Both the position numbers and the translations under genes were made by a program. From a virus, in IMG/VR virus record IMGVR_UViG_3300008050_000097: a stretch of DNA of 43,501 nucleotides; one strand, written 5' to 3'. Shown in pieces: positions 10,254 to 25,919 of this stretch (positions are counted from its first letter, which is position 1; each line of letters opens with the position of its first letter). The notes beneath the pieces are model-generated. The model ran no database searches. It was not told where the DNA came from and saw only the letters and a program-made list of their open reading frames with translations.

Positions 10254-10266
10254 TTGACATAATTGG

Positions 10267-10340
10267 CATCCCAATCGTCTAATTTGGCAGGACACCGGCA
10301 AGAGATGTCGGAAATGCAGGTTCGAGACCTGCTGGGATGT
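10267..10340 (+). tRNA. tRNA-like gene with non-canonical anticodon loop (possible pseudo-tRNA)
   Basis: Acceptor CATCCCA/TGGGATG and T-arm GCAGG-TTCGAGA-CCTGC are good; anticodon stem CCGGC/GTCGG closes loop AAGAGAT lacking U33. Confidence 0.4.
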
Positions 10341-10346
10341 TTTCCT

Positions 10347-10418
10347 GAAAGTGTAGCTCAGTGGTAGAGCACTGGCATTTGGCGCCAGGTGTCGTAGGTT
10401 CAATTCCTACCATTTTAC
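10347..10418 (+). tRNA. tRNA-Gln(TTG)
   Basis: Cloverleaf: D-arm GCTC..GAGC, anticodon stem CTGGC/GCCAG loop ATTTGGC, T-arm GTAGG-TTCAATT-CCTAC; CCA not encoded. Confidence 0.8.
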
Positions 10419-10793
10419 TAAACAGGAACGCCTGCACCTGCGTTAAGGTTGCGCGGGCTGGCCGGAACCCGTAAAGCAAGAGAAGGCAAACAAACAGGCT
10501 TATGCGGCTCCAGGGTGAGTAAGCATACATGACCGTAACGTGAAGAACCAACCCTATGGGGCGGACACGAGTCGGAAGGTCACGGGCAGAGTGGTGAGGT
10601 AGTCGCTGCTGAGATTACTCAGCTTAATTTGCTGTTGCACATTGCTCTGCCCAAATTTCAAGAAGGAGAAAGATTGTGCAAGCAATTGTTAGGCATATTG
10701 AAACAAAGAGCATGTACGTATGCTTTTCATGCGGGCAACCCGGATATCGACTTCCAGGCTTTGGACGAATGGAACCACACTGTAAGGAGCACC

Positions 10794-10994
10794 ATGATGA
10801 GCAAGCAGACTGATTTTCAACTTCCAGAAGCTTTGCAGGGTGTAATTGCAAATCATCTTCTTTACAGCTTTGAACCTGTAACAGATTATCAGTTTTTGAC
10901 TGATGATGAAAAGCGCATTTTTACACGTTCGCAGTATGAAGAACTACTGGCTTTCCTTGACAGTATCAAGGAAATTGATGAATTTGAATCGTGA
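10794..10994 (+). CDS. hypothetical protein
   Basis: ATG with RBS AGGAGCA inside longer listed ORF. Confidence 0.3.
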   Translation: MMSKQTDFQLPEALQGVIANHLLYSFEPVTDYQFLTDDEKRIFTRSQYEELLAFLDSIKEIDEFES

Positions 10995-11086
10995 GATATG
11001 GCTTTTGATATCTTTTGGTTGTAACAGCACACAGCTGAATACTTAAATGAACCAAAGGATCATTGATAGTTGAATAGATAAATTTT

Positions 11087-11162
11087 TCCTGGGTAGCTCA
11101 ATTGGTCGAGCGCCGTGCTGTTAACACGGTGGTTGGGGGTTCAAGTCCCTCCCCGGGAGCCA
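11087..11162 (+). tRNA. tRNA-Asn(GTT)
   Basis: Anticodon arm CCGTG-CTGTTAA-CACGG, T-loop TTCAAGT, encoded CCA. Confidence 0.85.
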
Positions 11163-11169
11163 AATAAAT

Positions 11170-11239
11170 GGTACTATAGCTTAAAGTAAAGCCCTTGTTT
11201 GTAACAAGGAAGATTCGGATTAACGCCCCGATAGTACCA
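11170..11239 (+). tRNA. tRNA-Thr(TGT)-like, organelle-like reduced structure
   Basis: 70 nt, AT-rich; acceptor GGTACTA/TAGTACC, perfect anticodon arm CCTTG-TTTGTAA-CAAGG, but 4-bp T-stem with 9-nt non-GTTC loop and no CCA. Confidence 0.45.
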
Positions 11240-11248
11240 AACTTTTAA

Positions 11249-11324
11249 TGCGGAGTGGAGAAGTGGTTATCTCGCTGGCCTCATAAGCCGGAAATCGGTG
11301 GTTCGAATCCACCCTCCGCAACCA
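11249..11324 (+). tRNA. tRNA-Met(CAT) (elongator or Ile2-type)
   Basis: Anticodon arm CTGGC-CTCATAA-GCCGG, T-arm GGTGG-TTCGAAT-CCACC, CCA encoded; paired 1-72 so not initiator-like. Confidence 0.85.
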
Positions 11325-11329
11325 ATCAT

Positions 11330-11409
11330 TGGGTTGTATCCCCTCCGCCTGATAAGCAGTTGAAAGGGTAGCCGGTTGCACGATGGTTCAAATCCATCCA
11401 ACCCAACCA
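11330..11409 (+). tRNA. degenerate tRNA-like element (3' half canonical, no recognisable D/anticodon arms)
   Basis: Acceptor TGGGTTG/CAACCCA + ACCA, T-arm GATGG-TTCAAAT-CCATC; interior holds CTGATAA (Ile-GAT-like loop) but without proper stems. Confidence 0.35.
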
Positions 11410-11430
11410 AATCAAGATGCACGAGAAACA

Positions 11431-11658
11431 ATGAAGAAGCTTTTTATCACACTCACTATGCTCCTACTTTTGTCAGGGTGTGCTCATCTTCCAGATACAA
11501 AGGGCCATTGTACAAAGGAGTTTCCCATCAAGGGAAACTTTGAATCTATGGTGTATCATACAACGGAAAGTGGTTACTACTGGCAGACAGTTGCAGAATG
11601 GTGTTTTGAAACTGAGAAGAATGCAAGGACTGCTGGCTATCGATCTGTGAAGAACTAA
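11431..11658 (+). CDS. lipoprotein
   Basis: MKKLFITLTMLLLLSGC: signal peptide with lipobox LSGC. Confidence 0.55.
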   Translation: MKKLFITLTMLLLLSGCAHLPDTKGHCTKEFPIKGNFESMVYHTTESGYYWQTVAEWCFETEKNARTAGYRSVKN

Positions 11659-11675
11659 AGAGCTTGCCAGAGAGC

Positions 11676-11707
11676 ATCTCCGTGAAAGAAATGTAGTTGT
11701 ATAATAG
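11676..11707 (+). promoter_or_regulatory. conserved promoter-like motif ATCTCCGTGA-N11-TTGTATAATAG
   Basis: Upstream of lipoprotein gene 11743. Confidence 0.45.
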
Positions 11708-11742
11708 AGATAGGCAATCAAACCGCAAAAACTGGAGTAACC

Positions 11743-12102
11743 ATGAAGCGTGCATTTCAACTGAGCTTGGCACTTGCTTCCATTGTTTTTCTTGCTGGAT
11801 GTCCGCTTCCACCGAGTAATGATGACGATTCAGCAGTAGTTTCTGAAATCGTCATGGAAATTCATGATGACGCGTACGCAATTACAATTTGCGAAATTCC
11901 AGCGTGGTTTGATAACGAAGTGCGGAGCAACATGCGCTGTAAGGACTTCTCTGCTGTAAAGATTTGGCCGAACGGTCTTGATGATGATCCAGCGTATGAC
12001 ATTATTGCAATTGATTGCTCCATGCCAATTCTTGGTGAAGGAGTTTCATGCGATATTAAAATGTGGAACGCACCTCCTTTGACTGGAGAAGAGCAGGAAT
12101 GA
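11743..12102 (+). CDS. lipoprotein
   Basis: MKRAFQLSLALASIVFLAGC lipobox LAGC; RBS GGAG. Confidence 0.55.
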   Translation: MKRAFQLSLALASIVFLAGCPLPPSNDDDSAVVSEIVMEIHDDAYAITICEIPAWFDNEVRSNMRCKDFSAVKIWPNGLDDDPAYDIIAIDCSMPILGEGVSCDIKMWNAPPLTGEEQE

Positions 12103-12368
12103 AAAAGCAATCGTGGTGGGCGAAATACAAAGAAGGGCGAAATGCCAAAAGATCTGCCAGGCTATGCGCCCGCGACATTCATAGCGTTGTTAGTTGGGAT
12201 GGCACAGCTTACGGTAGAAATGGTTACTTTAATGGGACCGAGGAATTTGTCTGGGCATGCGGTGTCTGCGATTTTGTGCATGATCCGTTGAGCAGTATCA
12301 GAACTGCAAGAGCACGTGAAAAAGAAATTGCATTGTGCCTGGAAGCGCTTCGCGCGCAGAACCTATAA
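12099..12368 (+). CDS. hypothetical protein
   Basis: ATGA overlap with upstream lipoprotein gene; 89 aa basic N-terminus. Confidence 0.4.
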   Translation: MKKQSWWAKYKEGRNAKRSARLCARDIHSVVSWDGTAYGRNGYFNGTEEFVWACGVCDFVHDPLSSIRTARAREKEIALCLEALRAQNL

Positions 12369-12374
12369 AGAATT

Positions 12375-12461
12375 GGGGATGTGGCGGAATTGGTATACGC
12401 AGCGGACTCAAAATCCGTGGGCTCAACGGCCGTGTGGGTTCGAGTCCCACCTTCCCCACCA
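12375..12461 (+). tRNA. tRNA-Leu(CAA)
   Basis: Type II tRNA: anticodon loop CTCAAAA, long variable arm, T-arm GTGGG-TTCGAGT-CCCAC, CCA encoded. Confidence 0.85.
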
Positions 12462-12468
12462 AATATTT

Positions 12469-12544
12469 GCGCGGATAGCTCAGTTGGTAGAGCAGGAGCT
12501 TTACAAGCTTCATGTCGCAGGTTCGAGCCCTGCTTCGCGCACCA
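12469..12544 (+). tRNA. tRNA-Val(TAC)
   Basis: Anticodon arm GGAGC-TTTACAA-GCTTC, T-arm GCAGG-TTCGAGC-CCTGC, CCA. Confidence 0.85.
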
Positions 12545-12556
12545 AATAGGATAATC

Positions 12557-12646
12557 ATGAGATTGAAGAAGAGCAAGCAGCGTTGCAGGTATTGCGGAGG
12601 CCCAATATGGGTGCCAAATCAACCCTGCGCAACTTGTTTCAAATAG
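12557..12646 (+). CDS. 29-aa zinc-ribbon-like peptide
   Basis: MRLKKSKQRCRYCGGPIWVPNQPCATCFK; CxxC-x12-CxxC; RBS AGGATAA. Confidence 0.25.
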   Translation: MRLKKSKQRCRYCGGPIWVPNQPCATCFK

Positions 12647-12656
12647 ATAGAATACT

Positions 12657-12745
12657 GGAAGGTCGCCAGAGGCTGGTGAGCTGGAGTCGCCTGCTAAGCG
12701 ATGGGTGTAACTGCCCCAAAGGTTCGATTCCTTTACCTTCCGCCA
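12657..12745 (+). tRNA. tRNA-Ser(GCT)
   Basis: Type II; anticodon arm GTCGC-CTGCTAA-GCGAT; T-arm AAAGG-TTCGATT-CCTTT; CCA. Confidence 0.85.
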
Positions 12746-12759
12746 AATAAGGAACAGAA

Positions 12760-13002
12760 ATGATTGATTACGCAAAACTTGCAAGCGAAATTCGTGAACT
12801 GGTGCCCCGTAACCGCCCAGGTGATAGAGCGCTGCTCGCGTCACGGGAAAGCAGCATTAGATATTCTGCACCAGAGATTGCCGGGCTTCATGTGACTGAA
12901 TTGGTTGATACAATTATGAGTATTTGTGGAGCTGGGCCTGAGTTTGAAGAAGAGTGGCAGCTTTCTATTTTCAACACATGGAACGCAGCACACGATCGAT
13001 AA
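12760..13002 (+). CDS. hypothetical protein
   Basis: 80 aa; RBS AAGGAAC. Confidence 0.45.
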   Translation: MIDYAKLASEIRELVPRNRPGDRALLASRESSIRYSAPEIAGLHVTELVDTIMSICGAGPEFEEEWQLSIFNTWNAAHDR

Positions 13003-13004
13003 AT

Positions 13005-13101
13005 GGAGAGGTAAGTCGAAAGATTCTGGGTATCGACTGCAGTCTTGAAAACTGTTAGGGGCTAACGCCCTGTCAGGGTTCGAATCCCTGTCTCTCCGCC
13101 A
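13005..13101 (+). tRNA. tRNA-Ser(TGA) with enlarged D-loop
   Basis: 97 nt; anticodon arm GCAGT-CTTGAAA-ACTGT; variable arm; T-arm CAGGG-TTCGAAT-CCCTG; D-stem AGTC/GACT encloses 17-nt loop. Confidence 0.7.
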
Positions 13102-13149
13102 TTTCACTGAAGGACCTAGTCATGAGCATTTTAACTGACAGAGTAGAAG

Positions 13150-13419
13150 ATGGCTGAGTACACTGAGAAATGGACAGTTGAATATTACGTCACCAGCGGG
13201 CTTGACCCTGAGATTGCAGGCATACTCTTTAAGAAGGGCTGGACGATCGTAGGACCAGCCAAGGCCATCAAGGTACTTGAAATTCCAGACAGGACTGCCA
13301 TCTGCGATCTTAACTACATTGCCCGCACAGCTTTCTTAAATGACGCAGAACTGTACAGCACAGCAGCTACCATGAGTGCGTTCGCAAGAATTCGAATTTT
13401 CAAGACAGAGTGGTATTGA
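13150..13419 (+). CDS. hypothetical protein
   Basis: 89-aa ORF. Confidence 0.45.
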   Translation: MAEYTEKWTVEYYVTSGLDPEIAGILFKKGWTIVGPAKAIKVLEIPDRTAICDLNYIARTAFLNDAELYSTAATMSAFARIRIFKTEWY

Positions 13420-13423
13420 TTGC

Positions 13424-13648
13424 ATGAGCGCATCGATGGAGCGTATAGGTTGTGATGAGTGTCGTGTCTGGTTCGATATTGAAGAAGACGCAGTTTTACC
13501 AGAGCATAAACGCTGGGTAGAAATTGATGGCTACAATACTGCTGGCGAAGAACATTGCCCGGGCAGTTGCACGCCAGGGCGGCGGACATTTAACGCGCGA
13601 AGCGAAGAAGTGACACAAAATGCAGCAAGCCAGCCTGGACTTGAATAA
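13424..13648 (+). CDS. hypothetical Cys-containing protein
   Basis: ATG 5 nt after upstream stop; CDEC...CPGSC. Confidence 0.4.
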   Translation: MSASMERIGCDECRVWFDIEEDAVLPEHKRWVEIDGYNTAGEEHCPGSCTPGRRTFNARSEEVTQNAASQPGLE

Positions 13649-13658
13649 AGCGCCGGTT

Positions 13659-13690
13659 TTTTCCGTTTAACACCCAACGTGTTATAATAG
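13659..13690 (+). promoter_or_regulatory. conserved promoter-like motif TTTTCCGTTT-N12-TGTTATAATAG
   Basis: Upstream of 13739 gene. Confidence 0.5.
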
Positions 13691-13738
13691 TAACAGGAAT
13701 AGAAAACCCGTAAAACGGTTTGAATAACGGAGATTAGA

Positions 13739-14149
13739 ATGTCTTACATAACTGTATATCCAATCCTTGATTTGGAGGCTTCGCCTACCAACCAGGAGGT
13801 GTTTGACAACGCTGCGTCATTTATCCTAGGCCAGGGTCCATGCATTACTTCCGACGTGACCCCCCGCTATAAGTATCGCAGTGGAGGAAAGGCTTGCGCC
13901 ATGGGTGCATTCATGACTGATTACGAAGCTGCCGTGGCTGACGAAGAGGGTTGGGGTGCTAGCTCAGTAGTTTCGAAAGCTACAAGGTTTAGCCAGTATG
14001 GAGAGCTATTTTCACACCTGGTGATTGCTCATGATCTTGCTGCTGACTGCGATCCAATTGATTTTCAAGCAAAATTTAGAGATGAAATGAGAAGGGTGGC
14101 CGAGGTTTTTTCTCTTGACGCAAGCAAGCTTGAGGAAGCCAATATTTGA
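13739..14149 (+). CDS. hypothetical protein
   Basis: 136 aa; preceded by TGTTATAATAG promoter-like motif and RBS GGAGA. Confidence 0.5.
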   Translation: MSYITVYPILDLEASPTNQEVFDNAASFILGQGPCITSDVTPRYKYRSGGKACAMGAFMTDYEAAVADEEGWGASSVVSKATRFSQYGELFSHLVIAHDLAADCDPIDFQAKFRDEMRRVAEVFSLDASKLEEANI

Positions 14150-14154
14150 TTTAT

Positions 14155-14230
14155 GCCCCCGTAGCTCAGTGGCCAGAGCGTTCCCCTTGTAAGGGAAGGG
14201 TCACCCGTTCGACTCGGGTCGGGGGCTCCA
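14155..14230 (+). tRNA. tRNA-Thr(TGT)
   Basis: Anticodon arm TTCCC-CTTGTAA-GGGAA; T-loop TTCGACT; CCA. Confidence 0.85.
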
Positions 14231-14245
14231 CTTTTAGGAACTACG

Positions 14246-14440
14246 ATGAGTTGTGATACAGAAAGAAAGCATCCGCACGGACATTGTACTGAGCATTGCG
14301 GAGAGTGCGGTGAAACTGCCAAGGGTGTGATCTGCGGCGTTTGTGCGCAGGTTCTGCAATCAGAGTTTTGCATTCGCTGCCACCAAGGCAAGGTGATCCC
14401 TGGAACAACGATGTGTGAAGATTGCTGGAAGGCTCGGTAG
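14246..14440 (+). CDS. Cys-rich zinc-binding small protein
   Basis: 64 aa with >=5 CxxC pairs. Confidence 0.45.
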   Translation: MSCDTERKHPHGHCTEHCGECGETAKGVICGVCAQVLQSEFCIRCHQGKVIPGTTMCEDCWKAR

Positions 14441-14542
14441 TAATTGTGGTACCGCTCTGGGTCCTAGAAGTGGGAATGATTCTGGCGCTAATTGCCGGCA
14501 TGCTAATTGGCTGGGGCTTTAGAGGCATAAAGGAAAATTGAT

Positions 14543-14618
14543 TCGCGGGTAGTTCAGTTGGTTAGAACATCGGGTTGTGATCCCGAAGACGCGGGTTCAA
14601 GTCCCGTCCTACGATCCA
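14543..14618 (+). tRNA. tRNA-His(GTG)
   Basis: Anticodon arm TCGGG-TTGTGAT-CCCGA; T-arm GCGGG-TTCAAGT-CCCGT; acceptor with one C-A mismatch; CCA. Confidence 0.75.
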
Positions 14619-14634
14619 TTAACTGAGGATGAAG

Positions 14635-14928
14635 ATGAGCATTGCAGAGAAGGTTGCTGAGCAAATCAGGGAGGCAATGGCGCAGCGCGCTGCCATTGAT
14701 AGAAATATTTCGCGACTTGTTGCGTATGCTTCGCTTCCTGAGAATCCGCAAAAGGCTGAGATTGTGTTCGACAATAGCACCTCTGTTGTTCTTCGTTCAA
14801 GCGCATATCGTGGCGCCAGTGAAGAAGAACGTGAACTTTATGAATTTGCAAAGCCAGAATTGACAGCACTTCTTAAGAAGATTCGTGCTTTCTCTGCTGG
14901 ACAACTTGCGCTTGAGGAGATTGAGTAA
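14635..14928 (+). CDS. hypothetical protein
   Basis: RBS GAGGA 8 nt upstream of ATG. Confidence 0.45.
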   Translation: MSIAEKVAEQIREAMAQRAAIDRNISRLVAYASLPENPQKAEIVFDNSTSVVLRSSAYRGASEEERELYEFAKPELTALLKKIRAFSAGQLALEEIE

Positions 14929-15086
14929 TGTTTGAGACTGTTGCCACGATCGTTTTTCTGTTTATGACAACCATCTGGTCAAGGGATGGTTGGACAAACT
15001 TGATTATCAAGGTTGCATTTGCACTGATGACAGCCTGGGCCTTCGCAGAAGCGATGATTGAATCAGGCTTCGTCATCGCAGCTTAA
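14928..15086 (+). CDS. small membrane protein (52 aa)
   Basis: TAATG overlap with upstream gene; two hydrophobic segments. Confidence 0.3.
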   Translation: MFETVATIVFLFMTTIWSRDGWTNLIIKVAFALMTAWAFAEAMIESGFVIAA

Positions 15087-15094
15087 CTGAAATT

Positions 15095-15182
15095 GGGGCG
15101 GTAGACCCGTAGGGGGCGGGTGGGGATTGTAAATCCCTTCTGTGTATGCAGCCCGGAAGTTCGACTCTTCCCTGCCCCACCA
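15095..15182 (+). tRNA. tRNA-Tyr(GTA)
   Basis: Bacterial type II Tyr: anticodon arm GGGGA-TTGTAAA-TCCCT, long variable arm, T-arm GGAAG-TTCGACT-CTTCC, CCA. Confidence 0.8.
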
Positions 15183-15199
15183 TTAACTAAGGAGAAATC

Positions 15200-15448
15200 A
15201 TGAATGATAGTGTAACACTACTGAGCGGCAAAAAGAACAAGCCAAGTCTTGTAGTTGCTCAGAAGCTTGTCGGTGGATACGTTCAATTGATTGAGCTTGC
15301 ACCAGTTGATGGTGATAAGACACAGATGCTTATTGATGAAGAAGGTCTTCTGAAGGGATTGCCGGGAAATCCTGAGGCTTCGTTCATTGCTGGGCAGCCA
15401 ATCGTTGGCCCTGCTGTTGTGTTGGTCGGCGACGCCTGCTGGGATTAA
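15200..15448 (+). CDS. hypothetical protein
   Basis: RBS AAGGAGAAATC. Confidence 0.45.
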   Translation: MNDSVTLLSGKKNKPSLVVAQKLVGGYVQLIELAPVDGDKTQMLIDEEGLLKGLPGNPEASFIAGQPIVGPAVVLVGDACWD

Positions 15449-15455
15449 AGCTTAT

Positions 15456-15611
15456 AGGACCATAGTTCAAGTGGTAGAATACGGCCGGGAATGATGCTCA
15501 TGCTTGCGCTAGAAACCATGTGCTGCAAGGTGAATTTGGTTGTTTGCATTGCAACACAAGCGTAGTGAGAAATCACTGGCTGGGATGCAGGTTCGAATCC
15601 TGCTGGCCCTT
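15456..15611 (+). tRNA. tRNA-like gene interrupted by ~91-nt insertion in anticodon arm
   Basis: 5' acceptor AGGACCA + D-arm GTTC-AAGTGGTA-GAAT and 3' T-arm GCAGG-TTCGAAT-CCTGC + acceptor TGGCCCT are canonical. Anticodon stems CGGCC/GGCTG flank an insert with an AGTGA-GAAA-TCACT tetraloop hairpin. Confidence 0.45.
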
Positions 15612-15621
15612 CATTTAAAAT

Positions 15622-15698
15622 ACGCCCGTAGCTCAGCTGGATAGAGCAGCGGATTCCTAATCCGCAGGTCGCAGGTTCGAGTCCTGCCGGGCGTACCA
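15622..15698 (+). tRNA. tRNA-Arg(CCT)
   Basis: Anticodon arm GCGGA-TTCCTAA-TCCGC; T-arm GCAGG-TTCGAGT-CCTGC; CCA. Confidence 0.85.
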
Positions 15699-15734
15699 TT
15701 CATAGGTGCTGATAACAATACTGGAGAAGAGAAC

Positions 15735-15950
15735 ATGGCTGAATTTAGCGTAAAGATTAAAAGAGTTCTTGAACAAGAAAGTGAAGTAACGCTTTCAATT
15801 AAGGGCATGTCACAGTGGGCTGTCGGGGAAGTGGCTAGCTCGCTGGAGGAAGTGCTTCGTGAAATTGTTGAAAGTGATGCTGATTCTGTCACTTGGGGCT
15901 CTGAAGACGAAGAGATCACAATCGAGAGTGTCAGGTACACTGGAGAGTAA
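15735..15950 (+). CDS. hypothetical acidic protein
   Basis: RBS GGAGAAGAG. Confidence 0.45.
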   Translation: MAEFSVKIKRVLEQESEVTLSIKGMSQWAVGEVASSLEEVLREIVESDADSVTWGSEDEEITIESVRYTGE

Positions 15951-15951
15951 G

Positions 15952-16212
15952 ATGTATAAGTTTGTAATTTTGATTGCCGCGATGTTCATGCTCAGCGGCT
16001 GTGTTAGCTCTGACGCAGCTACCAGTTATGCCGCGAGGGCGTACCCTGACTGCACAAACCACCAGTCACTGGGTCACCACTATGGTGGCGAAAATGGCGC
16101 TTCGCAGACAGAAGTCCGCATGACCTGTGACGGGGTGAATAAATCAATCACAGTCAAGTGTGTATTTGGGTTTGGAATCATCAGCGATACAACCTGCCAC
16201 GAGAATAACTGA
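15952..16212 (+). CDS. lipoprotein
   Basis: MYKFVILIAAMFMLSGC lipobox LSGC. Confidence 0.5.
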   Translation: MYKFVILIAAMFMLSGCVSSDAATSYAARAYPDCTNHQSLGHHYGGENGASQTEVRMTCDGVNKSITVKCVFGFGIISDTTCHENN

Positions 16213-16218
16213 GCAGTT

Positions 16219-16584
16219 ATGTTCAAGTGGGTACCTGGCCGGCAAGGTGGCGATTATTTCAAGGTGGAGCTGCTCAACTCAAAACGCCTGCGCATGCACT
16301 TAGTTCTACTTAAGCTCCCAAAGGGTGTGCACATTGCATATCACAAAGACCCAGCGCCTGATGGATTCAAGCATTGGCGCGTTAACTTTGTTTTCTGGCG
16401 GGGAGCGACAGGTTCGAGACTTGTGCAGGGGCAGTCACTATTTGCTCGTGCACGTGCGGCCTATGGAGGCTTTTTCGCCAATAGGCTGAACATCTTCAGG
16501 CCTGATGAGGTTATCCATGGCGTATCACGTGCCAGTGAGACAAGCTACGCACTCAGCTTTGGTTGGTTGCAGAGAAAGAAGTGA
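16219..16584 (+). CDS. 2OG-Fe(II) oxygenase superfamily protein (small)
   Basis: HKD (HxD) ... H ... RAS (RxS) spacing consistent with a double-stranded beta-helix oxygenase. Confidence 0.45.
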   Translation: MFKWVPGRQGGDYFKVELLNSKRLRMHLVLLKLPKGVHIAYHKDPAPDGFKHWRVNFVFWRGATGSRLVQGQSLFARARAAYGGFFANRLNIFRPDEVIHGVSRASETSYALSFGWLQRKK

Positions 16585-16586
16585 TT

Positions 16587-17999
16587 ATGCGTGAATTTCG
16601 ACAAAAGGGCAGGACAGCTGCGCTTCTTTGGACAATTGAGCTCCATGGAGCAACAGAGACAGTTCGTTACGGCCAGCTCGGTGGGCAGATGCAGGAGGCA
16701 TCCCATACTTACGCTGGTGTCAACATTGGTAAGTCAAATGAGCTAAGCCCAGAGGAATTTGCCCAGACACGGGTCGATAAGAAGATTGAAGAGCAGCGCA
16801 GGGCAGGCTACATTGAATATGTTGATGGTGTTGCCACAGAAGTGCGAGTTGAAGCTGTAAGCGCCGACGAGCCATTGCCAACAAATCTCTGCTTCTACAA
16901 GCCGAACAACAAGCCTGGCGGCAAGATGCTCAAGCTGATTGAGGATGGGAAAGCCATCTTCGGCCGCAAGCGTGACGGCATGATGCACGTGATTCGCGTT
17001 ACTGCTGACAGCACTGAAGTGTACTCCCGCCGAATGCTTCAGTCGATGGACAAGGAACCTGGGAAACCGTGGGCACTTCGTTACCCGAAGATTGTAGAAG
17101 AATTTGAAGCGATGGCTGAGGTCGAAATCTTCCCACCCAATACTGTGTTCCTTGGTGAGATGGTCATGGACCGCGGTGGTGTCGATGACTTCACGCACGT
17201 CGCTCGTGTTACAAAGTCACTGACTCATGAATCACTTGCCATCCAAGCAGCGGACGGTTGGGTGTCGTATTATATCTGGGATGTTGCCATTTGGGGCGGT
17301 GTTGAAGTTGCCAAGACGATGTCTTTCGCCGAAAGGCAAAAGCTCCTTGAGCCAATGAACAGGGAGTGGCTTAAACTAGAGAACTGGTGGGTGCTCGGAC
17401 ATACACCAATTCTGCCTCTGGATGTTTGGACACCGAGTGATTTGCAGCTTGCAACTGATCTTGAAGATGAGTTTGCGGATTTTCCGCCTGTGCTTACAAT
17501 GGCAACTGATCTGGCGAAGGAGTTGGATTGGGAAGGCTTCGTGGTTGTTGATCCGACAGCTGTCTATGGTGAGAAGGCGTTCAACTTCAGGGGTAAGCCC
17601 GACAGGCCTCGTGGCATGTGTGCCAAGGTAAAGCCCTCCTATGAGGATGACTTCATCGCTCGCTGGGATCCTGAAGACGACATCGGCGAGTACGGCAAGG
17701 GCAAGCACCAGGGCATGTGCGGCAGTGTCGGGCTTTACCAGCTGAATGAGGCTGGGGAAGAGGTATGGATCTGTAAGGCTGGCGGCGGCATCAAGGATAA
17801 GTTCACAAAGGAATATCCCGATGGTCTGCTGCGGGTAGATCTAAGTGACAAAAGCATCTACCCGCTTGTTGTAGAAGTTGAATACGATTCACGCACGTAC
17901 AGGTCTGATGGTGATAAAACTGACGCACTTCGTTTCCCACGAATTGTTCGTTGGCGTGATGATAAGGCGTACGAAGAGTGTGTGAATTCTAGATTGTAA
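16587..17999 (+). CDS. ATP-dependent DNA ligase
   Basis: Motif I FGRKRDGMMHV (KxDG), motif IV DWEGFVVVDP, motif V CAKVKP; ATG with purine-rich RBS. Confidence 0.7.
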   Translation: MREFRQKGRTAALLWTIELHGATETVRYGQLGGQMQEASHTYAGVNIGKSNELSPEEFAQTRVDKKIEEQRRAGYIEYVDGVATEVRVEAVSADEPLPTNLCFYKPNNKPGGKMLKLIEDGKAIFGRKRDGMMHVIRVTADSTEVYSRRMLQSMDKEPGKPWALRYPKIVEEFEAMAEVEIFPPNTVFLGEMVMDRGGVDDFTHVARVTKSLTHESLAIQAADGWVSYYIWDVAIWGGVEVAKTMSFAERQKLLEPMNREWLKLENWWVLGHTPILPLDVWTPSDLQLATDLEDEFADFPPVLTMATDLAKELDWEGFVVVDPTAVYGEKAFNFRGKPDRPRGMCAKVKPSYEDDFIARWDPEDDIGEYGKGKHQGMCGSVGLYQLNEAGEEVWICKAGGGIKDKFTKEYPDGLLRVDLSDKSIYPLVVEVEYDSRTYRSDGDKTDALRFPRIVRWRDDKAYEECVNSRL

Positions 18000-18061
18000 A
18001 TAACAGCGCCAGTGTCATTGGCGATGATCCTAAGTGTATGCCAAAATTACTACTCACTCAT

Positions 18062-18138
18062 AGGAGGGTGGCCAAGTGGTAAAGGCAGCGATCTTATGAG
18101 TCGATGATGCGTGGGTTCAATCCCCACCCCTCCTACCA
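18062..18138 (+). tRNA. tRNA with anticodon TAT (Ile, AUA-decoding)
   Basis: Acceptor AGGAGGG/CCCTCCT, 3-bp D-stem, anticodon loop CTTATGA (U33, R37), T-arm GTGGG-TTCAATC-CCCAC, CCA. Confidence 0.55.
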
Positions 18139-18294
18139 TTTCAGTGGAGCAAAATGTCTGTAACACATGTGCAGGGCGATTACTTAAATCAGATTGTGAT
18201 ATTATTGGTCACGGCTGCAATTGCATGACAACTTAGGCAGACTTGGCCACATGTTTACGATGCCGATAGGCTCAACACCAAGCGTAGTGATCCG

Positions 18295-18606
18295 ATGAAG
18301 CTTGGTACGTTTGCAGTTGCAGTTGCATCGAATCGTGATGAAGAGCCAATGCACGTCTACAACCTCTATACACAATACGGTTATGGCCATGGCCGACATG
18401 CTGAGTACGCAGCAATTCGTTTTGCAATGGAGGCAATGCGAGCTGACGTTCTTGAAGGGTGTAATTTGAGTGCGTGGGGTGAAAGAGATCCAAAGATCGG
18501 ATTTCCAAAAATCGGAGCTGGTCTTGGTGGCGGTGACTGGGACATTATTGAAACGATCATTGATACAGTCTGGCATGACTTTGATGTGTTTGTGTACAGT
18601 CTTTGA
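18295..18606 (+). CDS. hypothetical protein
   Basis: 103 aa; internal repeat HVY(D/N). Confidence 0.4.
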   Translation: MKLGTFAVAVASNRDEEPMHVYNLYTQYGYGHGRHAEYAAIRFAMEAMRADVLEGCNLSAWGERDPKIGFPKIGAGLGGGDWDIIETIIDTVWHDFDVFVYSL

Positions 18607-18613
18607 ATTGCAT

Positions 18614-18646
18614 GTTTCCGCGCTGGAAACTACATTGTACAATATA
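18614..18646 (+). promoter_or_regulatory. conserved promoter-like motif GTTTCCGCGC-N12-TGTACAATATAA
   Basis: Upstream of 18664 peptide and tRNA-Ala. Confidence 0.45.
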
Positions 18647-18663
18647 AACAGGAATGAAAGGAA

Positions 18664-18798
18664 ATGAACATGGATAACGACGACGATTTCTTTGGCACCT
18701 TCTTCAAGGGAGGCGCTGTTCTTATTGTAGTTGGCATCATTGCAAATTTGGTTTTGTTTGGTGGCGCAGCTCTGATCATTAAGGCACTGTTCTTTTAA
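18664..18798 (+). CDS. small membrane peptide (44 aa)
   Basis: RBS AAAGGAAATG; acidic N-term plus one TM helix. Confidence 0.3.
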   Translation: MNMDNDDDFFGTFFKGGAVLIVVGIIANLVLFGGAALIIKALFF

Positions 18799-18805
18799 AG
18801 CTTTT

Positions 18806-18881
18806 GGGGACATAGCTCAGTTGGGAGAGCGGTTGCTTTGCAAGCAGCAGGTCAGGGGTTCGATCCCCCTTGTCTCCACCA
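18806..18881 (+). tRNA. tRNA-Ala(TGC)
   Basis: G3:U70 identity pair; anticodon arm GTTGC-TTTGCAA-GCAGC; T-loop TTCGATC; CCA. Confidence 0.85.
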
Positions 18882-18904
18882 AATTCGAAATAGAAACATA
18901 GATA

Positions 18905-19483
18905 ATGGATAGAATTAGCAAAGCTTGGAAGCATGCAGAAGACAAATTCGATGGTGTGCTGTATGGAGATTTTTCATATTTGAAGCACCTTCGTGATGCG
19001 CATGATGTGCTTGTCTCTGTTGGGATCATGGAAAAGACGCTGAGAATTGCAGTAATTCTCCATGACAACATTGAAGACACAAGCGATACTGTGCAGGATA
19101 TCGAAGAGTTGTTTGGTTGGCAAATTGCCCAGCTTGTCTGGGCAGTCTCTGACGGCCCGGGTGAAACTCGAAAAGAGCGGCACCAGAACACGTATCCAAA
19201 AACAGCAAGTGTTGAAAATGCTGTGATTGTAAAGCTGGCTGACAGAATTGCAAATGTCAAGGCCAGTGTTGGGTCAATTCTTAAGCGTGGAAAGGTTGAC
19301 AAATTTTCCATGTATTTGGGTGAGAGAGAATCGTTTATGCTCGCCTTGAATGCTTCGAAGCATTCACCTTCGTACGATACGAATGTTGACTCTTTGTGGC
19401 GCATGTATGAGGCTCAATACGATCTTGGGCTTGAGCACCTTGCGCAGCTAGATAGAGAGAATGCTCGGGCTTGGCGAACTTGA
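18905..19483 (+). CDS. HD-domain metal-dependent phosphohydrolase
   Basis: H...HD...D motifs: HLRDAHDVL, ILHDNIEDT, KLADRIAN. Confidence 0.6.
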   Translation: MDRISKAWKHAEDKFDGVLYGDFSYLKHLRDAHDVLVSVGIMEKTLRIAVILHDNIEDTSDTVQDIEELFGWQIAQLVWAVSDGPGETRKERHQNTYPKTASVENAVIVKLADRIANVKASVGSILKRGKVDKFSMYLGERESFMLALNASKHSPSYDTNVDSLWRMYEAQYDLGLEHLAQLDRENARAWRT

Positions 19484-19505
19484 TGAAGAACTTGAAGGAA
19501 AATAA

Positions 19506-19582
19506 CAGGGTGTAGCTCAGTTGGTAGAGCGCCGGTCTTGGGGTCCGGAGGTTCGCAGGTTCGAGACCTGCCACCCTGACCA
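19506..19582 (+). tRNA. tRNA-Pro(TGG)
   Basis: Acceptor CAGGGTG/CACCCTG; anticodon loop CTTGGGG; T-arm GCAGG-TTCGAGA-CCTGC; CCA. Confidence 0.8.
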
Positions 19583-19600
19583 TTTAAAATGAGGAAGATA

Positions 19601-19828
19601 ATGAAGAACATGGAAATTGTGACAAAGGCAGGAACCCACTTCAGGCTGACACGAGCTGGGTTTTTGTACCGTGAAGGACAGCGCCTGGGCAAGGTTTTGG
19701 CACCTAGCATCGATGATGTAGTGGCTTCCATGAAGGGCGAGCCTCGACGAGGAAACAATTTTCGACTCATTCGCTACGTTGTTGATGGAAGTCACGCTGG
19801 TTTCCATACACAGTACATTAGCTGCTAG
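19601..19828 (+). CDS. hypothetical protein
   Basis: ATG with RBS GAGGAAG. Confidence 0.4.
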   Translation: MKNMEIVTKAGTHFRLTRAGFLYREGQRLGKVLAPSIDDVVASMKGEPRRGNNFRLIRYVVDGSHAGFHTQYISC

Positions 19829-19838
19829 GGAGAGTAAG

Positions 19839-20084
19839 ATGCGACCGATTTGGAAAATTACTGAAGAGATTCTAACTGACTGGCAGAATGTTTCTCCTCA
19901 CGCCCAACCGTATTTGAATGCAATGCTTTATTTGGATGACTTTACATCACAGTACGGTCTGGACGATGGCGAATCTGTTGTGTTGTATTTTCTCTCAAAC
20001 GCAACGACTTGGCGGGGAGAAACTGCACGAAGGATCAAGGCAGAGCTCCGCAAGGATCTCAAAGAATACAGGAGGCGCATATGA
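19839..20084 (+). CDS. hypothetical protein
   Basis: RBS AGGGAGAG. Confidence 0.4.
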   Translation: MRPIWKITEEILTDWQNVSPHAQPYLNAMLYLDDFTSQYGLDDGESVVLYFLSNATTWRGETARRIKAELRKDLKEYRRRI

Positions 20085-20272
20085 CACGCACACAACGCCC
20101 ATCAATTCTCGGTGAATACGAAATTGTAGCTGAGCCACCTGATAAGATTCTGGTCGAAGTTGAAACTAAGCTGCCTGACGGAAAGATCGCGATCTCGTAT
20201 CAGAAGTACGTGTTGGCAGAAGATGCAGTTCCGGCAGCTCCGGGCAGCCAACCTCTCTTCTTCAAAAAGTAA
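20081..20272 (+). CDS. hypothetical protein
   Basis: RBS AGGAGG; ATGA overlap. Confidence 0.35.
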   Translation: MTRTQRPSILGEYEIVAEPPDKILVEVETKLPDGKIAISYQKYVLAEDAVPAAPGSQPLFFKK

Positions 20273-20281
20273 AAAGTATCT

Positions 20282-20357
20282 GGGCCATTAGTTCAGCTGG
20301 TAGAACAAGGGACTCTTAATCCCCACGTCCCGGGTTCAAATCCCGGATGGCCCTCCA
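20282..20357 (+). tRNA. tRNA-Lys(CTT)
   Basis: Acceptor GGGCCAT/ATGGCCC; anticodon loop CTCTTAA; T-arm CCGGG-TTCAAAT-CCCGG; CCA. Confidence 0.8.
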
Positions 20358-25916: not shown

Positions 25917-25919
25917 GCT

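What the first reader, a model, noticed from the sequence alone, without database searches (positions are those of the whole stretch)
10267..20357. Dense array of ~19 tRNA/tRNA-like genes interleaved with small ORFs
The canonical tRNAs are Gln(TTG), Asn(GTT), Met(CAT), Leu(CAA), Val(TAC), Ser(GCT), Ser(TGA), Thr(TGT), His(GTG), Tyr(GTA), Arg(CCT), Ala(TGC), Pro(TGG) and Lys(CTT), plus an Ile(TAT)-like tRNA and four aberrant tRNA-like genes. All are on the + strand. Most anticodons have U/C at the wobble position, so they decode A/G-ending codons, typical of phage tRNA sets that complement host codon usage or replace host tRNAs depleted by defence nucleases.
Basis: seen in the sequence. Interest (0 to 1): 0.5.

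Follow-up and report, generated by a model that had tools for sequence, protein, structure and literature searches.

The report
Phage tRNA island hiding a rewired tRNA
The region is a real cluster of 19 tRNA and tRNA-like genes in a large uncultured phage, ordinary in itself, but one "aberrant" member belongs to a widespread, unannotated, phage-only family of isoleucine and arginine tRNAs whose D-arm segment sits after the anticodon arm.

Summary
Window 10266-20357 holds 19 co-oriented tRNA or tRNA-like genes among about 25 small ORFs. Fifteen are cloverleaf tRNAs for 14 amino acids, and 15 of the 19 encode CCA. The window is part of a 175.7-kb metagenomic contig, most likely a large phage. 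It also encodes RlaP, a T4 Rnl1-like RNA ligase, a PNK-like kinase and several phosphoesterases. That makes it a known kind of locus: a jumbo-phage tRNA island with RNA repair genes.

The surprise is 11330-11409, which ARAGORN misses and Rfam scores at 28.2 bits. It belongs to a fixed-length 77-nt family found in more than 120 IMG/VR loci and 115 cultured-phage records. Only 2 matches, both probably viral, occur among 185,579 species genomes. In this family a 3-bp D-stem encloses the anticodon arm, and the D-loop follows it (ARYYGG-N-YA). Covariation is strong, with 94% of cells paired against 36-46% in slid controls. Anticodons are only Ile or Arg. The A20-like base is present in 47 of 47 Arg members and in no Ile member. 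The genes fill the anticodon slot that the surrounding arrays lack (pooled P = 2e-8). I found no published description.

Three other oddities (10266, 11170, 15456) remain orphans.

The parts
10266..10341 (+). E1: aberrant tRNA-like gene. It has an 8-bp acceptor helix, normal D and T arms, and the loop AAGAGAU without U33 (or a 6-bp stem with a 5-nt loop). No CCA is encoded.
   Evidence: ARAGORN calls it 'Leu(gag)' with score 107.9 and the anticodon at position 37. Rfam gives 31.6 bits. The fold z-score is -3.46. No relatives were found.
10347..10418 (+). tRNA-Gln(TTG), without encoded CCA
   Evidence: (56.4 bits)
11087..11162 (+). tRNA-Asn(GTT), with CCA
   Evidence: 62.6 bits
11170..11239 (+). 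E2: tRNA-Thr(TGT)-like gene. The acceptor, D and anticodon stems are perfect. The D-loop has no GG, and the T arm is 4 bp with a 9-nt loop and no TTC. No CCA is encoded.
   Evidence: Rfam gives 45.1 bits. ARAGORN misses it at default settings. The fold z-score is -4.47. No relatives were found.
11249..11324 (+). tRNA(CAT), with CCA. It is not an initiator type (U1-A72). Elongator Met versus Ile2 is not resolved.
   Evidence: (65.8 bits)
11330..11409 (+). E3: segment-swapped tRNA-Ile(GAT), with CCA. Layout: acceptor 11330-11336 / 11399-11405; U8 A9; helix 11340-11342 with 11366-11368 enclosing the anticodon arm (loop CUGAUAA, 11349-11355); D-loop-like AGCCGGUUG, then CAC, together 11370-11381; T arm 11382-11398.
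   Evidence: Rfam tRNA gives 28.2 bits and ARAGORN misses it. The family model R1 gives 86.2 bits, E = 1e-21, against at most 32 bits for every cloverleaf tRNA in the window.
12375..12461 (+). tRNA-Leu(CAA), class II, with CCA
   Evidence: 58.7 bits
12469..12544 (+). tRNA-Val(TAC), with CCA
   Evidence: 68.6 bits
12657..12745 (+). tRNA-Ser(GCT), class II, with CCA
   Evidence: ARAGORN score 108.4. In Rfam only a sub-threshold tRNA-Sec match appears.
13005..13101 (+). tRNA-Ser(TGA) variant with a long D stem and a 13-nt D-loop (AAGAUUCUGGGUA), with CCA
   Evidence: Rfam gives 37 bits. ARAGORN finds it only at a lowered threshold. It is 75-79% identical over its full length to tRNA-Ser genes of T5-like and T4-like Vibrio phages, with a compensatory change in the D stem.
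14155..14230 (+). tRNA-Thr(TGT), with CCA
   Evidence: 65 bits
14543..14618 (+). tRNA-His(GTG), with CCA
   Evidence: 64.4 bits
15095..15182 (+). tRNA-Tyr(GTA), class II (bacterial type), with CCA
   Evidence: ARAGORN score 104.3. The MFE fold is a cloverleaf.
15456..15612 (+). E5: a tRNA body with normal acceptor, D and T arms. Its anticodon stem continues into an imperfect hairpin of about 100 nt (an 86-nt insert). No CCA is encoded.
   Evidence: ARAGORN with introns allowed scores it 104.6. The fold is (z = -1.47). There is no Rfam intron or ribozyme match, no repeat copy and no relatives.
15622..15698 (+). tRNA-Arg(CCT), with CCA; D-loop AGCUGGAUA
   Evidence: (71.6 bits)
18062..18138 (+). 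tRNA-Ile(TAT), with CCA
   Evidence: (57.7 bits)
18806..18881 (+). tRNA-Ala(TGC), with CCA
   Evidence: 67 bits
19506..19582 (+). tRNA-Pro(TGG), with CCA
   Evidence: 60.5 bits
20282..20357 (+). tRNA-Lys(CTT), with CCA
   Evidence: 65.6 bits
2068..3042 (+). Context: RlaP-family nucleotidyltransferase (RNA-ligase-associated Pol beta)
   Evidence: PF10127, E = 3.7e-12; PMC7824862 and PMC12776372
26284..27465 (-). Context: T4 Rnl1-like RNA ligase
   Evidence: PF09511, E = 1.2e-8. tblastn matches 859 phage records annotated as RNA ligase, at 25-30% identity.
27467..28021 (-). Context: P-loop kinase (AAA_33), candidate polynucleotide kinase, next to the RNA ligase
   Evidence: PF13671, E = 5.2e-12
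24958..25608 (-). Context: HAD-family phosphatase in the same minus-strand cluster
   Evidence: PF18143 HAD_SAK_2; phrog_1818, E = 1.5e-22
16587..17999 (+). ATP-dependent DNA ligase lying inside the island; used as an anchor to find relatives

Best explanation
Window 10266-20357 is the tRNA island of a large uncultured phage (contig of at least 175 kb). It encodes 15 cloverleaf tRNAs for 14 amino acids and 4 non-canonical tRNA-like RNAs, probably transcribed as polycistronic precursors together with small ORFan genes. The island lies in a variable region: in a distant relative the flanking MVP-like gene and the DNA ligase are separated by a single 207-aa gene.

Inferred: the island gives the phage its own decoding capacity late in infection or when host tRNAs are cleaved, working alongside the nearby heal-and-seal RNA repair genes (Rnl1-like ligase, kinase, phosphoesterases, RlaP).

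Shown: the 'aberrant' gene at 11330-11409 is not a decayed copy. It belongs to a conserved, phage-restricted family of 77-nt tRNAs in which a 3-bp D-stem closes around the anticodon arm and the D-loop comes after it. Compared with a cloverleaf, the segment 10-21 (5' strand of the D stem plus D-loop) has swapped places with the segment 22-47, which is a non-circular permutation. The nucleotides that build the tRNA core are retained: U8, A14, the R15-Y48 pair, G18 G19, A21, the G10-C25 pair, and G53 T54 Psi55 C56 A58 C61.

Inferred: it folds into the usual L shape, is charged by IleRS, and serves as this array's tRNA-Ile(GAU). It would read AUU and AUC, which are 481 of the 502 Ile codons counted and which no cloverleaf tRNA in the window can read.
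For: Array.

Phage context and repair genes: with the review PMC7824862.

Variable-region placement: in L008 an MVP-like gene, a 207-aa gene and the ligase follow one another with no tRNAs.

Family distribution:
- Full-length blastn matches lie in unannotated gaps of tRNA arrays of Streptomyces, Microbacterium, Rhodococcus and crAss-like phages.
- A pattern with 23 fixed bases matches 53 IMG/VR loci.
- The strict pattern matches only 2 contigs among 185,579 species genomes, both probably viral.
- 115 GenBank phage records hold a member.

Structure, on 87 distinct sequences:
- 94% of cells are paired, against 36-46% when partners are slid.
- The covariation score is 0.845, against 0.21 in shuffles.
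- Helix 11-13/37-39 is 100% paired, with CG, AU, UA and GC all present.
- All four unconstrained anticodon-stem pairs covary.
- The position 42-52 pair (R15-Y48-like) is AU 62, GC 17, GU 2, other 6.

Identity signals:
- Anticodons are only GAT, TAT and CAT (Ile) or ACG, TCT, CCT and TCG (Arg).
- The base after GG is A in 47/47 Arg-type members and T or C in 49/49 Ile-type members. The discriminator is A in all Ile-type members.
- In cloverleaf tRNAs of the same loci, the base after G18 G19 is A in 78 of the 83 Arg tRNAs that have a GG in the D-loop, and rarely in any other family. Their D-loops (AAYUGGAUA) equal the swapped segment.

Slot-filling: a cloverleaf tRNA with the same anticodon is present in 2/36 loci that have a swapped GAT, against 13/23 loci without one (P = 2e-5). 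Pooled over anticodons it is 3/69 against 82/226 (P = 2e-8).

Window copy: 86.2 bits with model R1, CCA encoded, 5 nt downstream of tRNA(CAT).
Against: - There are no expression, processing or charging data for any family member.
- The L-shaped fold and the segment mapping are inferences from conserved nucleotides. The alternative mapping, with the anticodon arm inserted into the D-loop, cannot be excluded from sequence.
- Family members were collected with sequence patterns, so invariance at the pattern positions is by construction. The loci are phylogenetically related, so the Fisher tests overstate independence.
- The window copy has a C-A mismatch in its anticodon stem, one of only 4 non-standard cells among 87 at that pair.
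- The anti-defence role of the island is circumstantial. The host is unknown, and the tRNA set covers only about 53-58% of the element's codons.
- The window contains no structural hallmark gene, so the phage assignment rests on relatives and homologies.
- The literature search covered only open-access papers and bioRxiv.
Confidence: 0.7

Rival explanations
1. The island is only a codon-usage adaptation. The tRNAs supply codons that the phage uses more than its host does, with no link to defence or RNA repair.
For: Several tRNAs match the element's preferred codons: AAG (RSCU 1.57), ACA (1.55), GCA (1.37), CCA (1.32) and AGC (1.41).
Against: Other tRNAs read codons the element avoids: ATA (0.13), GTA (0.60), CAA (0.65) and AGG (0.68). 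The top codons CTT, GTT, ATT and CGC have no cloverleaf tRNA in the window. Heal-and-seal RNA repair genes sit in the same window. The host's codon usage is unknown, so the hypothesis could not be tested properly.
Confidence: 0.2
2. The swapped Ile/Arg RNAs are not decoders. They are tRNA mimics, for example decoys for anticodon nucleases or binders of IleRS and ArgRS.
For: They keep intact anticodon loops and aaRS identity nucleotides, which a decoy would also need. Known tRNA mimics such as the TYMV TLS and YrlA have permuted connectivity (PMC11472068).
Against: They occur exactly where the array lacks the cloverleaf isoacceptor, which a decoy would not require. The acceptor stem, discriminator, T arm and, in many lineages, an encoded CCA are maintained. 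The anticodon varies among five Ile/Arg codon classes, as in a decoding family.
Confidence: 0.15
3. The three orphan oddities (E1 at 10266, E2 at 11170 and E5 at 15456) are decaying pseudogenes or insertion-damaged tRNA genes with no function.
For: No relatives were found in any collection. None encodes CCA, whereas 15 of the other 16 genes do. E1 lacks U33. The fold of E5 is not better than shuffles (z = -1.47).
Against: E1 and E2 have perfect or near-perfect stems, with fold z-scores of -3.5 and -4.5. E2 has lost both partners of the D-loop/T-loop contact, which looks like a coherent design. All three are packed 5-10 nt from neighbouring tRNAs, as in a co-processed precursor. T4 keeps two stable tRNA-like RNAs of unknown function, rnaC and rnaD, in its tRNA cluster.
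Confidence: 0.45
4. E5 is an intron-containing tRNA. The long hairpin is cut out, for example by RNase III or another endonuclease, and the halves are rejoined by the phage Rnl1-like ligase.
For: The insert sits in the anticodon loop and extends the anticodon stem. The window encodes a ligase of the family that seals anticodon-loop breaks.
Against: The 86-nt insert is too short for a group I intron, and no Rfam intron or ribozyme matches it. No junction gives a canonical loop with both U33 and a purine at 37: ARAGORN's best reading, CAC, has U37. No homologues are known.
Confidence: 0.07
5. The window is not viral. The array is a tRNA array unit of a plasmid or a bacterial chromosome.
For: No virion gene lies in the window. 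tRNA array units do exist on mycobacterial plasmids (PMC12803027).
Against: The closest homologues of several proteins are in jumbo and huge phages. Loci of ligase relatives carry a T4 rIIB-like gene, phage lysozyme and M15/M23 peptidase domains on proteins of about 1100 aa. The window has dense ORFan genes in two strand blocks. The swapped tRNA family is essentially phage-only.
Confidence: 0.05

Closest known systems
tRNA clusters of T4, T5 and jumbo phages combined with RNA repair genes (Rnl1/Pnkp, RlaP)
   Same: The tRNA genes are co-oriented and interleaved with small ORFs. An Rnl1-family ligase, a kinase, phosphoesterases and RlaP are encoded in the same genome. The proposed role is to replace or repair tRNAs attacked by host nucleases (PMC7824862, PMC10264068).
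   Different: There is no sequence relationship to any cultured phage. The heal-and-seal proteins are only 25-30% identical to the T4 family. The kinase and phosphatase are separate genes. Function is untested.
Natural non-circular permutations of ribozymes (hammerhead and hairpin; Eckert et al., NAR 2023, PMC10085705)
   Same: Two adjacent segments of a structured RNA change order while the helices and conserved nucleotides are kept.
   Different: Those cases are self-cleaving ribozymes. That paper states that no non-circular permutation of a natural RNA was known before it. Here the RNA is a tRNA.
tRNA mimics with altered connectivity: TYMV tRNA-like structure and the bacterial Y RNA YrlA
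   Same: They adopt a tRNA-like L shape with a different strand path (PMC11472068).
   Different: Those are not encoded in tRNA arrays and have no anticodon family. YrlA is circularly permuted. The Rfam YrlA model scores only 23-26 bits here against a gathering score of 69.
Circularly permuted tRNA genes of Cyanidioschyzon and other algae
   Same: The gene order of tRNA segments differs from that of the mature cloverleaf.
   Different: In those genes the 3' half precedes the 5' half, and circularisation restores a normal tRNA. Here the acceptor strands are terminal, and no circularisation could restore the canonical order.
D-arm-lacking mitochondrial tRNAs and allo-tRNAs (PMC7609411, PMC5389517)
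   Same: They are functional tRNAs that depart from the cloverleaf and are missed by standard finders.
   Different: Mitochondrial forms lose the D-arm and the elbow contacts. The swapped family keeps the D-stem, the D-loop G18 G19 and the T-loop. Allo-tRNAs change the acceptor/T lengths (8/4, 9/3), not the order of segments.
T4 stable RNAs species 1 and 2 (rnaC, rnaD)
   Same: They are tRNA-like RNAs of unknown function lying in a phage tRNA cluster. rnaC has a canonical T arm plus long extra hairpins, much like E5.
   Different: There is no detectable sequence similarity, and the arrangement of the extra hairpins differs.

Membership tests
Canonical tRNA (Rfam RF00005, cloverleaf) | Covariance-model score at or above the gathering score of 29 bits | tested here: met
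   13 genes pass at default settings, and 2 more in sensitive mode (37 and 31.6 bits). It is not met for 11330 (28.2 bits). There is no RF00005 match for Ser(GCT), Tyr or E5, which ARAGORN calls.
Canonical tRNA (Rfam RF00005, cloverleaf) | Seven-nt anticodon loop with U33 and a purine at 37; D-loop G18 G19 and T-loop T54 Psi55 C56 | tested here: met
   Met for the 15 cloverleaf genes. Not met for E1 (A33), E2 (no GG, no TTC) or E5 (loop replaced by a hairpin).
Segment-swapped tRNA-Ile/Arg family (defined here, model R1) | Fixed 77-nt layout: 7-bp acceptor, U8 A9, a 3-bp helix enclosing a 5-bp anticodon stem and 7-nt loop, UGAAA, then ARYYGG-N-YA-CAY, T arm, acceptor | tested here: met
   Window 11330-11406 aligns end to end without gaps and scores 86.2 bits (family range about 78-95 bits). 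The best cloverleaf tRNA in the window scores 32 bits. The window copy is in the seed alignment, so the score is partly by construction. It was first found independently by blastn.
Segment-swapped tRNA-Ile/Arg family (defined here, model R1) | Ile or Arg anticodon with the matching base after GG (U/C for Ile, A for Arg) and A73 for Ile | tested here: met
   The window copy has anticodon GAT, GGU and discriminator A.
Segment-swapped tRNA-Ile/Arg family (defined here, model R1) | Aminoacylation and use in translation | not testable with these tools
   The evidence is indirect only: identity nucleotides and slot-filling in the arrays.
T4-type tRNA heal-and-seal repair (Pnkp + Rnl1) | Rnl1-family RNA ligase | tested here: met
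   PF09511, E = 1.2e-8; tblastn matches annotated phage RNA ligases.
T4-type tRNA heal-and-seal repair (Pnkp + Rnl1) | Polynucleotide 5'-kinase / 3'-phosphatase | tested here: inconclusive
   An AAA_33 P-loop kinase lies next to the ligase, and HAD and metallophosphoesterase genes lie nearby. There is no specific Pnkp match, and the domains are not fused.
tRNA with a group I intron in the anticodon loop | Intron of about 200 nt or more with a group I core (Rfam Intron_gpI) | tested here: not met
   The E5 insert is 86 nt, and no Rfam intron or ribozyme match appears up to E = 5.
tRNA-Sec / allo-tRNA (considered for E1) | 13-bp or 12-bp acceptor/T branch with a long variable arm; UCA anticodon for Sec | tested here: not met
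   E1 has an 8+5 bp branch, but a 4-nt variable loop, no UCA anticodon and no RF01852 match.
Y RNA-like (YrlA, RF02553) | Covariance-model score at or above 69 bits | tested here: not met
   The best matches are 23-26.5 bits and overlap ordinary tRNAs.
Circularly permuted tRNA gene | The 3' half lies upstream of the 5' half, with the acceptor strands adjacent in the gene | tested here: not met
   The acceptor strands are at the two ends of the gene and covary there (helix 1-7/70-76, 97% paired).

The most novel reading that the evidence does not exclude
Phages of Actinomycetota, Bacteroidota, Vibrio and uncultured hosts carry functional tRNA-Ile and tRNA-Arg whose core is wired in a different order: the 5' strand of the D stem and the D-loop are moved behind the anticodon arm. 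This would be the first natural non-circular permutation of a tRNA. These tRNAs would be charged by host IleRS and ArgRS and used on host ribosomes. The rewiring may have been selected because it escapes a host factor, such as a nuclease or modification enzyme, that reads the canonical D-arm or variable-loop path.
Probability: 0.5. Interest if true: 0.9.

Novelty: new variant of a known kind. Interest (0 to 1): 0.78.

Why it matters
The island itself adds one more example to a known pattern, in which large phages bring their own tRNAs together with RNA repair enzymes.

The swapped Ile/Arg tRNAs matter more, for four reasons.
- If they decode, they show that the tRNA L shape can be reached by a different strand order in nature. 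[quoted passage not shown]
- They show that standard finders systematically miss the Ile(GAU) or Arg(ACG) slot in many phage arrays. ARAGORN overlaps 1 of 154 copies, Rfam misses 5 of 7 tested, and more than 100 GenBank phage genomes leave them unannotated. This distorts every analysis of phage tRNA repertoires and codon compensation.
- Cultured systems exist in which the question is directly testable: Streptomyces BE-cluster phages, Vibrio crassostreae phages and a Bacteroides crAss-like phage.
- A naturally rewired tRNA that is still charged would also be a useful scaffold for orthogonal translation.

Tried and rejected
Searching for relatives of the whole locus:
- Megablast of the island against GenBank phages found nothing.
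- A ligase-based scan of IMG/VR found nothing.
- The closest ligase homologues are at most 48% identical, and five of their loci have no tRNA array.
- The two huge-phage loci with an MVP homologue have no tRNAs nearby.

Searching for relatives of E1, E2, E5 and the noncoding stretch 10419-10676:
- blastn against phages and against 1.4 Mb of held phage arrays found nothing.
- Four exact-pattern scans of IMG/VR returned either nothing or chance hits in coding DNA.
- A gapped pattern designed for E5 returned only tandem tRNA pairs.

Other checks that led nowhere:
- Group I intron or ribozyme in E5: no Rfam match.
- E5 insert as a repeated mobile hairpin: no second copy exists.
- Structured RNA at 10419-10632: fold z = -0.47.
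- Sigma-70 promoter and terminator scan of the island: not above shuffles.
- Suppressor tRNA or stop-codon recoding: no CTA, TCA or TTA anticodon, and ordinary stop-codon usage.
- Most island ORFs have no Pfam or PHROG match.

Ten literature searches found no description of the swapped tRNA family. The metagenome scan was not used, because no close relative of this phage exists in the larger protein database.

Full report
**Observation.** ARAGORN at default settings finds 15 tRNA genes in the 43.5-kb window. All are on the + strand between 10266 and 20357, with none elsewhere. Rfam's tRNA model passes its gathering score for 13 genes at 45-72 bits. In sensitive mode it also passes for 13005-13098 (37 bits) and 10267-10340 (31.6 bits), and 11330-11406 falls just below at 28.2 bits. 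Ser(GCT) and Tyr(GTA) are class II tRNAs that only ARAGORN calls. Allowing introns adds 15456-15612. CCA is encoded in 15 of 19 genes; the exceptions are Gln and three of the odd genes. Spacers within sub-clusters are 5-10 nt, and elsewhere small ORFs with ribosome-binding sites fill the gaps.

**What the element is.** The window is part of a 175,726-bp metagenomic contig that was recovered independently in other assemblies. It has no near relative among GenBank phages or in IMG/VR. Its proteins point to a large phage:
- An 880-aa major-vault-protein-like gene has 37-39% identical homologues in the 462-kb and 735-kb 'huge phage' genomes.
- A 121-aa protein is shared with jumbo phages of Pseudomonas, Ralstonia and Burkholderia.
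- Loci around the closest DNA-ligase homologues (at most 48% identity) carry a T4 rIIB-like gene and lysozyme or peptidase domains on proteins of about 1100 aa.

Those relatives have no tRNAs at this position. In one of them only a single 207-aa gene separates the MVP-like gene from the ligase. In the window, these two genes are separated by about 9 kb of tRNAs and ORFans. The island therefore occupies a variable region.

The window also encodes the following:
- an RlaP nucleotidyltransferase;
- an Rnl1-like RNA ligase next to a P-loop kinase;
- HAD and metallophosphoesterase genes;
- an HD protein;
- a damaged macro-domain gene.

This is the 'tRNA provisioning plus RNA repair' package described for jumbo phages (PMC7824862). 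It fits the proposal that phage tRNAs counter host anticodon nucleases (PMC10264068).

**Codon usage.** I counted 8,879 codons from 59 genes.
- The set serves some favoured codons: AAG, ACA, GCA and CCA.
- It also serves codons the element avoids: ATA (RSCU 0.13), GTA, CAA and AGG.
- The most used Ile, Leu and Val codons (ATT, CTT, GTT) have no cloverleaf tRNA in the window.

With generous wobble rules the 15 cloverleaf tRNAs read 53% of codons. The host is unknown, so host complementation could not be tested.

**The aberrant genes.** I queried the odd elements against GenBank phages with sensitive blastn.

The Ser(TGA) gene has an enlarged D-arm. It is a conserved tRNA-Ser variant of T5-like and T4-like Vibrio phages, 75-79% identical over its full length, with a compensatory change in the D stem. 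It is annotated as tRNA-Ser in some records and left blank in others.

Unexpectedly, 11330-11409 matched unannotated DNA in about 80 Streptomyces phages, two other actinophages and a crAss-like Bacteroides phage. In each case inspected, the match lies in a gap inside a tRNA array.

**The family.**
- A pattern with 23 fixed bases, taken from the four-way alignment, has 53 matches in IMG/VR.
- The same pattern has only 2 matches among one genome per 185,579 bacterial and archaeal species. Both are MAG contigs, and one has exactly the length (362,763 bp) of an IMG/VR viral contig that also matched.
- That scan, together with the loci already held, gave 98 distinct 77-nt sequences, of which 96 pass a simple fold filter.
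- 115 GenBank phage records hold a member: Streptomyces 84, Vibrio 24, Microbacterium 4, and others. Nearly all are unannotated.
- ARAGORN overlaps 1 of 154 copies.
- Rfam misses 5 of 7 tested copies, and the other two score 29.8 and 31.7 bits.

**Structure.** All members have the same length and layout:
- a 7-bp acceptor stem;
- U8 A9;
- U-N-N-C, then C;
- a 5-bp anticodon stem whose top pair is usually U-U;
- a 7-nt loop (Y-U-NNN-A-N);
- UGAAA;
- G-N-N-U;
- A-R-Y-Y-G-G-N-Y-A, then C-A-Y;
- a canonical T arm (G-TTCRA-C);
- the acceptor 3' strand and the discriminator.

On 87 distinct sequences:
- 94% of cells form standard pairs, against 36-46% when the partners are slid by 1-3 columns.
- No shuffle out of 500 reaches the observed covariation score (0.845 against 0.21).
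- The short helix N-N-C/G-N-N, which encloses the anticodon arm, is 100% paired with CG, AU, UA and GC all present.
- The four anticodon-stem pairs, which the pattern left free, all covary.
- The R after the invariant A pairs with the Y just before the T stem: AU 62, GC 17, GU 2, other 6.

A smaller set gave the same picture. The model R1, built from this alignment, scores the window copy at 86.2 bits and every cloverleaf tRNA in the window at 32 bits or less. In 100 loci it finds second copies that the patterns had missed.

**Reading of the structure (inference).** The stretch A-R-Y-Y-G-G-N-Y-A is a D-loop (A14 R15 Y16 Y17 G18 G19 N20 Y20a A21). Cloverleaf tRNA-Arg genes of the same loci have AAYUGGAUA at that place, and the window's own tRNA-Arg has AGCUGGAUA. 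The covarying R-Y pair then corresponds to the R15-Y48 Levitt pair, and U8 and A14 are invariant.

The helix end that touches the anticodon stem is an invariant G-C pair, like G10-C25. The end facing the core is followed by A14. The most economical mapping is therefore 1-9, [22-25], 26, [27-43], [44-47 plus one], [10-13], [14-21], 48, 49-76. In other words, the blocks 10-21 and 22-47 have swapped places. This needs three breakpoints and is reachable by an internal tandem duplication followed by two deletions.

An alternative mapping, in which the anticodon arm sits inside the D-loop, needs four breakpoints and reverses the D-stem relative to the anticodon stem. Sequence alone cannot exclude it.

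**Evidence that these RNAs decode.**
1. Anticodons are only Ile (GAT, TAT, one CAT) or Arg (ACG, TCT, CCT, TCG), both in the free-arm set and among the additional copies found by the model.
2. The base after GG is A in 47/47 Arg-type members and U or C in 49/49 Ile-type members. The discriminator is A in all Ile-type members. Among cloverleaf tRNAs of the same loci, A after G18 G19 occurs in 78 of the 83 Arg tRNAs that have a GG in the D-loop, and in a small minority of every other family. A20 is the classical ArgRS identity element; that point rests on established knowledge, not on a test made here.
3. The genes fill a hole. In 59 non-redundant loci with at least 10 cloverleaf tRNAs, a cloverleaf Ile(GAT) is present in 2 of 36 loci that have a swapped GAT and in 13 of 23 that do not (P = 2e-5). 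For TAT the figures are 0/13 against 17/46, for ACG 1/11 against 15/48, and for TCT 0/4 against 30/55. Pooled, P = 2e-8. The loci are related, so these P values are optimistic.
4. The window repeats the common crAss-like combination of a TAT-anticodon tRNA-Ile with a swapped Ile(GAT); in the window the TAT tRNA is a cloverleaf. The swapped gene carries CCA like the functional neighbours. It would read 481 of the 502 Ile codons counted.

**What is not shown.** There are no data on expression, processing, charging or the 3D fold. Why only Ile and Arg are involved is unknown, and so is why phages keep this form. Escape from a host nuclease or modification enzyme that reads the canonical backbone path is a guess.

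**Literature.** Ten full-text searches of the held library found no description of such tRNAs.
- A 2020 review of non-canonical tRNAs does not mention phages or permutations.
- The 2023 paper on non-circular permutations of ribozymes says none was known in natural RNAs before it.
- tRNA mimics with permuted connectivity, the TYMV TLS and YrlA, are the nearest structural precedent.

The library lacks most subscription journals, so prior description cannot be ruled out.

**The other oddities.**
- E1 (10266-10341) has an 8-bp acceptor helix and a loop without U33.
- E2 (11170-11239) is a Thr(UGU) look-alike that has lost both the D-loop GG and the T-loop TTC. A normal tRNA-Thr(TGT) also exists at 14155.
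- E5 (15456-15612) is a tRNA body whose anticodon stem runs on into a hairpin of about 100 nt.

None of the three encodes CCA, and none has a detectable relative. E5 is not a group I intron, ribozyme or repeat. The stable RNAs rnaC and rnaD in the T4 tRNA cluster are the closest precedent for such passengers. Whether these three are functional or decaying is open.

**Verdict.** The tRNA island is real and of a known kind. The value of the region lies in one of the 'aberrant' genes, which led to a large, phage-restricted and apparently undescribed family of segment-swapped tRNA-Ile and tRNA-Arg.

Noticed in passing
window 4716-7358 (+): An 880-aa protein carries major-vault-protein shoulder and repeat domains and an SPFH/Band-7 domain. 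It has 37-39% identical homologues in the 462-kb and 735-kb huge-phage genomes LR756500 and LR756501. In relative L008 its homologue lies one small gene upstream of the DNA ligase.
   Followed up: partly
window 18155-18606 (+): A macro/phosphatase-like gene looks broken. The called 103-aa ORF (18295-18606) matches only positions 116-202 of phrog_335. The N-terminal part is readable upstream in two frames (MSVTHVQGDYLNQ, then DCDIIGHGCNCMTT), interrupted by stops. It lies directly downstream of tRNA-Ile(TAT).
   Followed up: partly
window 10419-10676 (+): A 258-nt stretch without an ORF lies after tRNA-Gln and ends in a terminator-like hairpin (10608-10623). There is no Rfam match, no homologue, and a fold no better than shuffles (z = -0.47).
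   Followed up: yes
window 24958-28458 (-), 2068-3632 (+), 21111-21968 (+) and 29864-30694 (-): RNA repair and nucleotide genes lie outside the finding's coordinates: a HAD phosphatase, an Rnl1-like ligase and an AAA_33 kinase in one minus-strand cluster; RlaP and an NT5C 5'-nucleotidase; and two metallophosphoesterases.
   Followed up: partly
window 11431-11658, 11743-12102 and 15952-16212 (+): Three small island ORFs start with lipoprotein-type signal peptides (for example ...LLLSGC and ...FLAGC). One has a weak match to a Cor superinfection-exclusion PHROG.
   Followed up: no
window 13005-13101; L070-L073: The tRNA-Ser(UGA) variant with the D-region TAAGYCGAAAGATTCTGGGTA is shared by T5-like and T4-like Vibrio phages. 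It is unannotated in several GenBank records, including Pontus, PG07 and nt-1.
   Followed up: yes
L018, L027, L030, L048, L050, L055, L062, L065 (IMG/VR contigs of about 60-100 kb): These contigs, which share an identical swapped Ile(GAT) gene, carry a second swapped tRNA, Ile(TAT), about 250 nt away. Other loci carry swapped Arg pairs (L031 and L041: ACG + TCG).
   Followed up: partly
L021 1744-1827 (-), IMG/VR contig of 142 kb: A match to the Rfam selenocysteine tRNA model above its gathering score (50.2 bits against 47) lies inside a viral array of 33 tRNAs.
   Followed up: no
window, about 25 kb: Cumulative GC skew peaks near 24-26 kb, where gene orientation switches from + to -.
   Followed up: no
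L069 1409-1547 (-), phage T4 rnaC: T4 species 1 RNA folds with a canonical T arm (CCGGG-UUCGAAU-CCCGG), an acceptor-like closing stem and two long extra hairpins (z = -4.57). It is thus a tRNA-like RNA with large expansions.
   Followed up: partly
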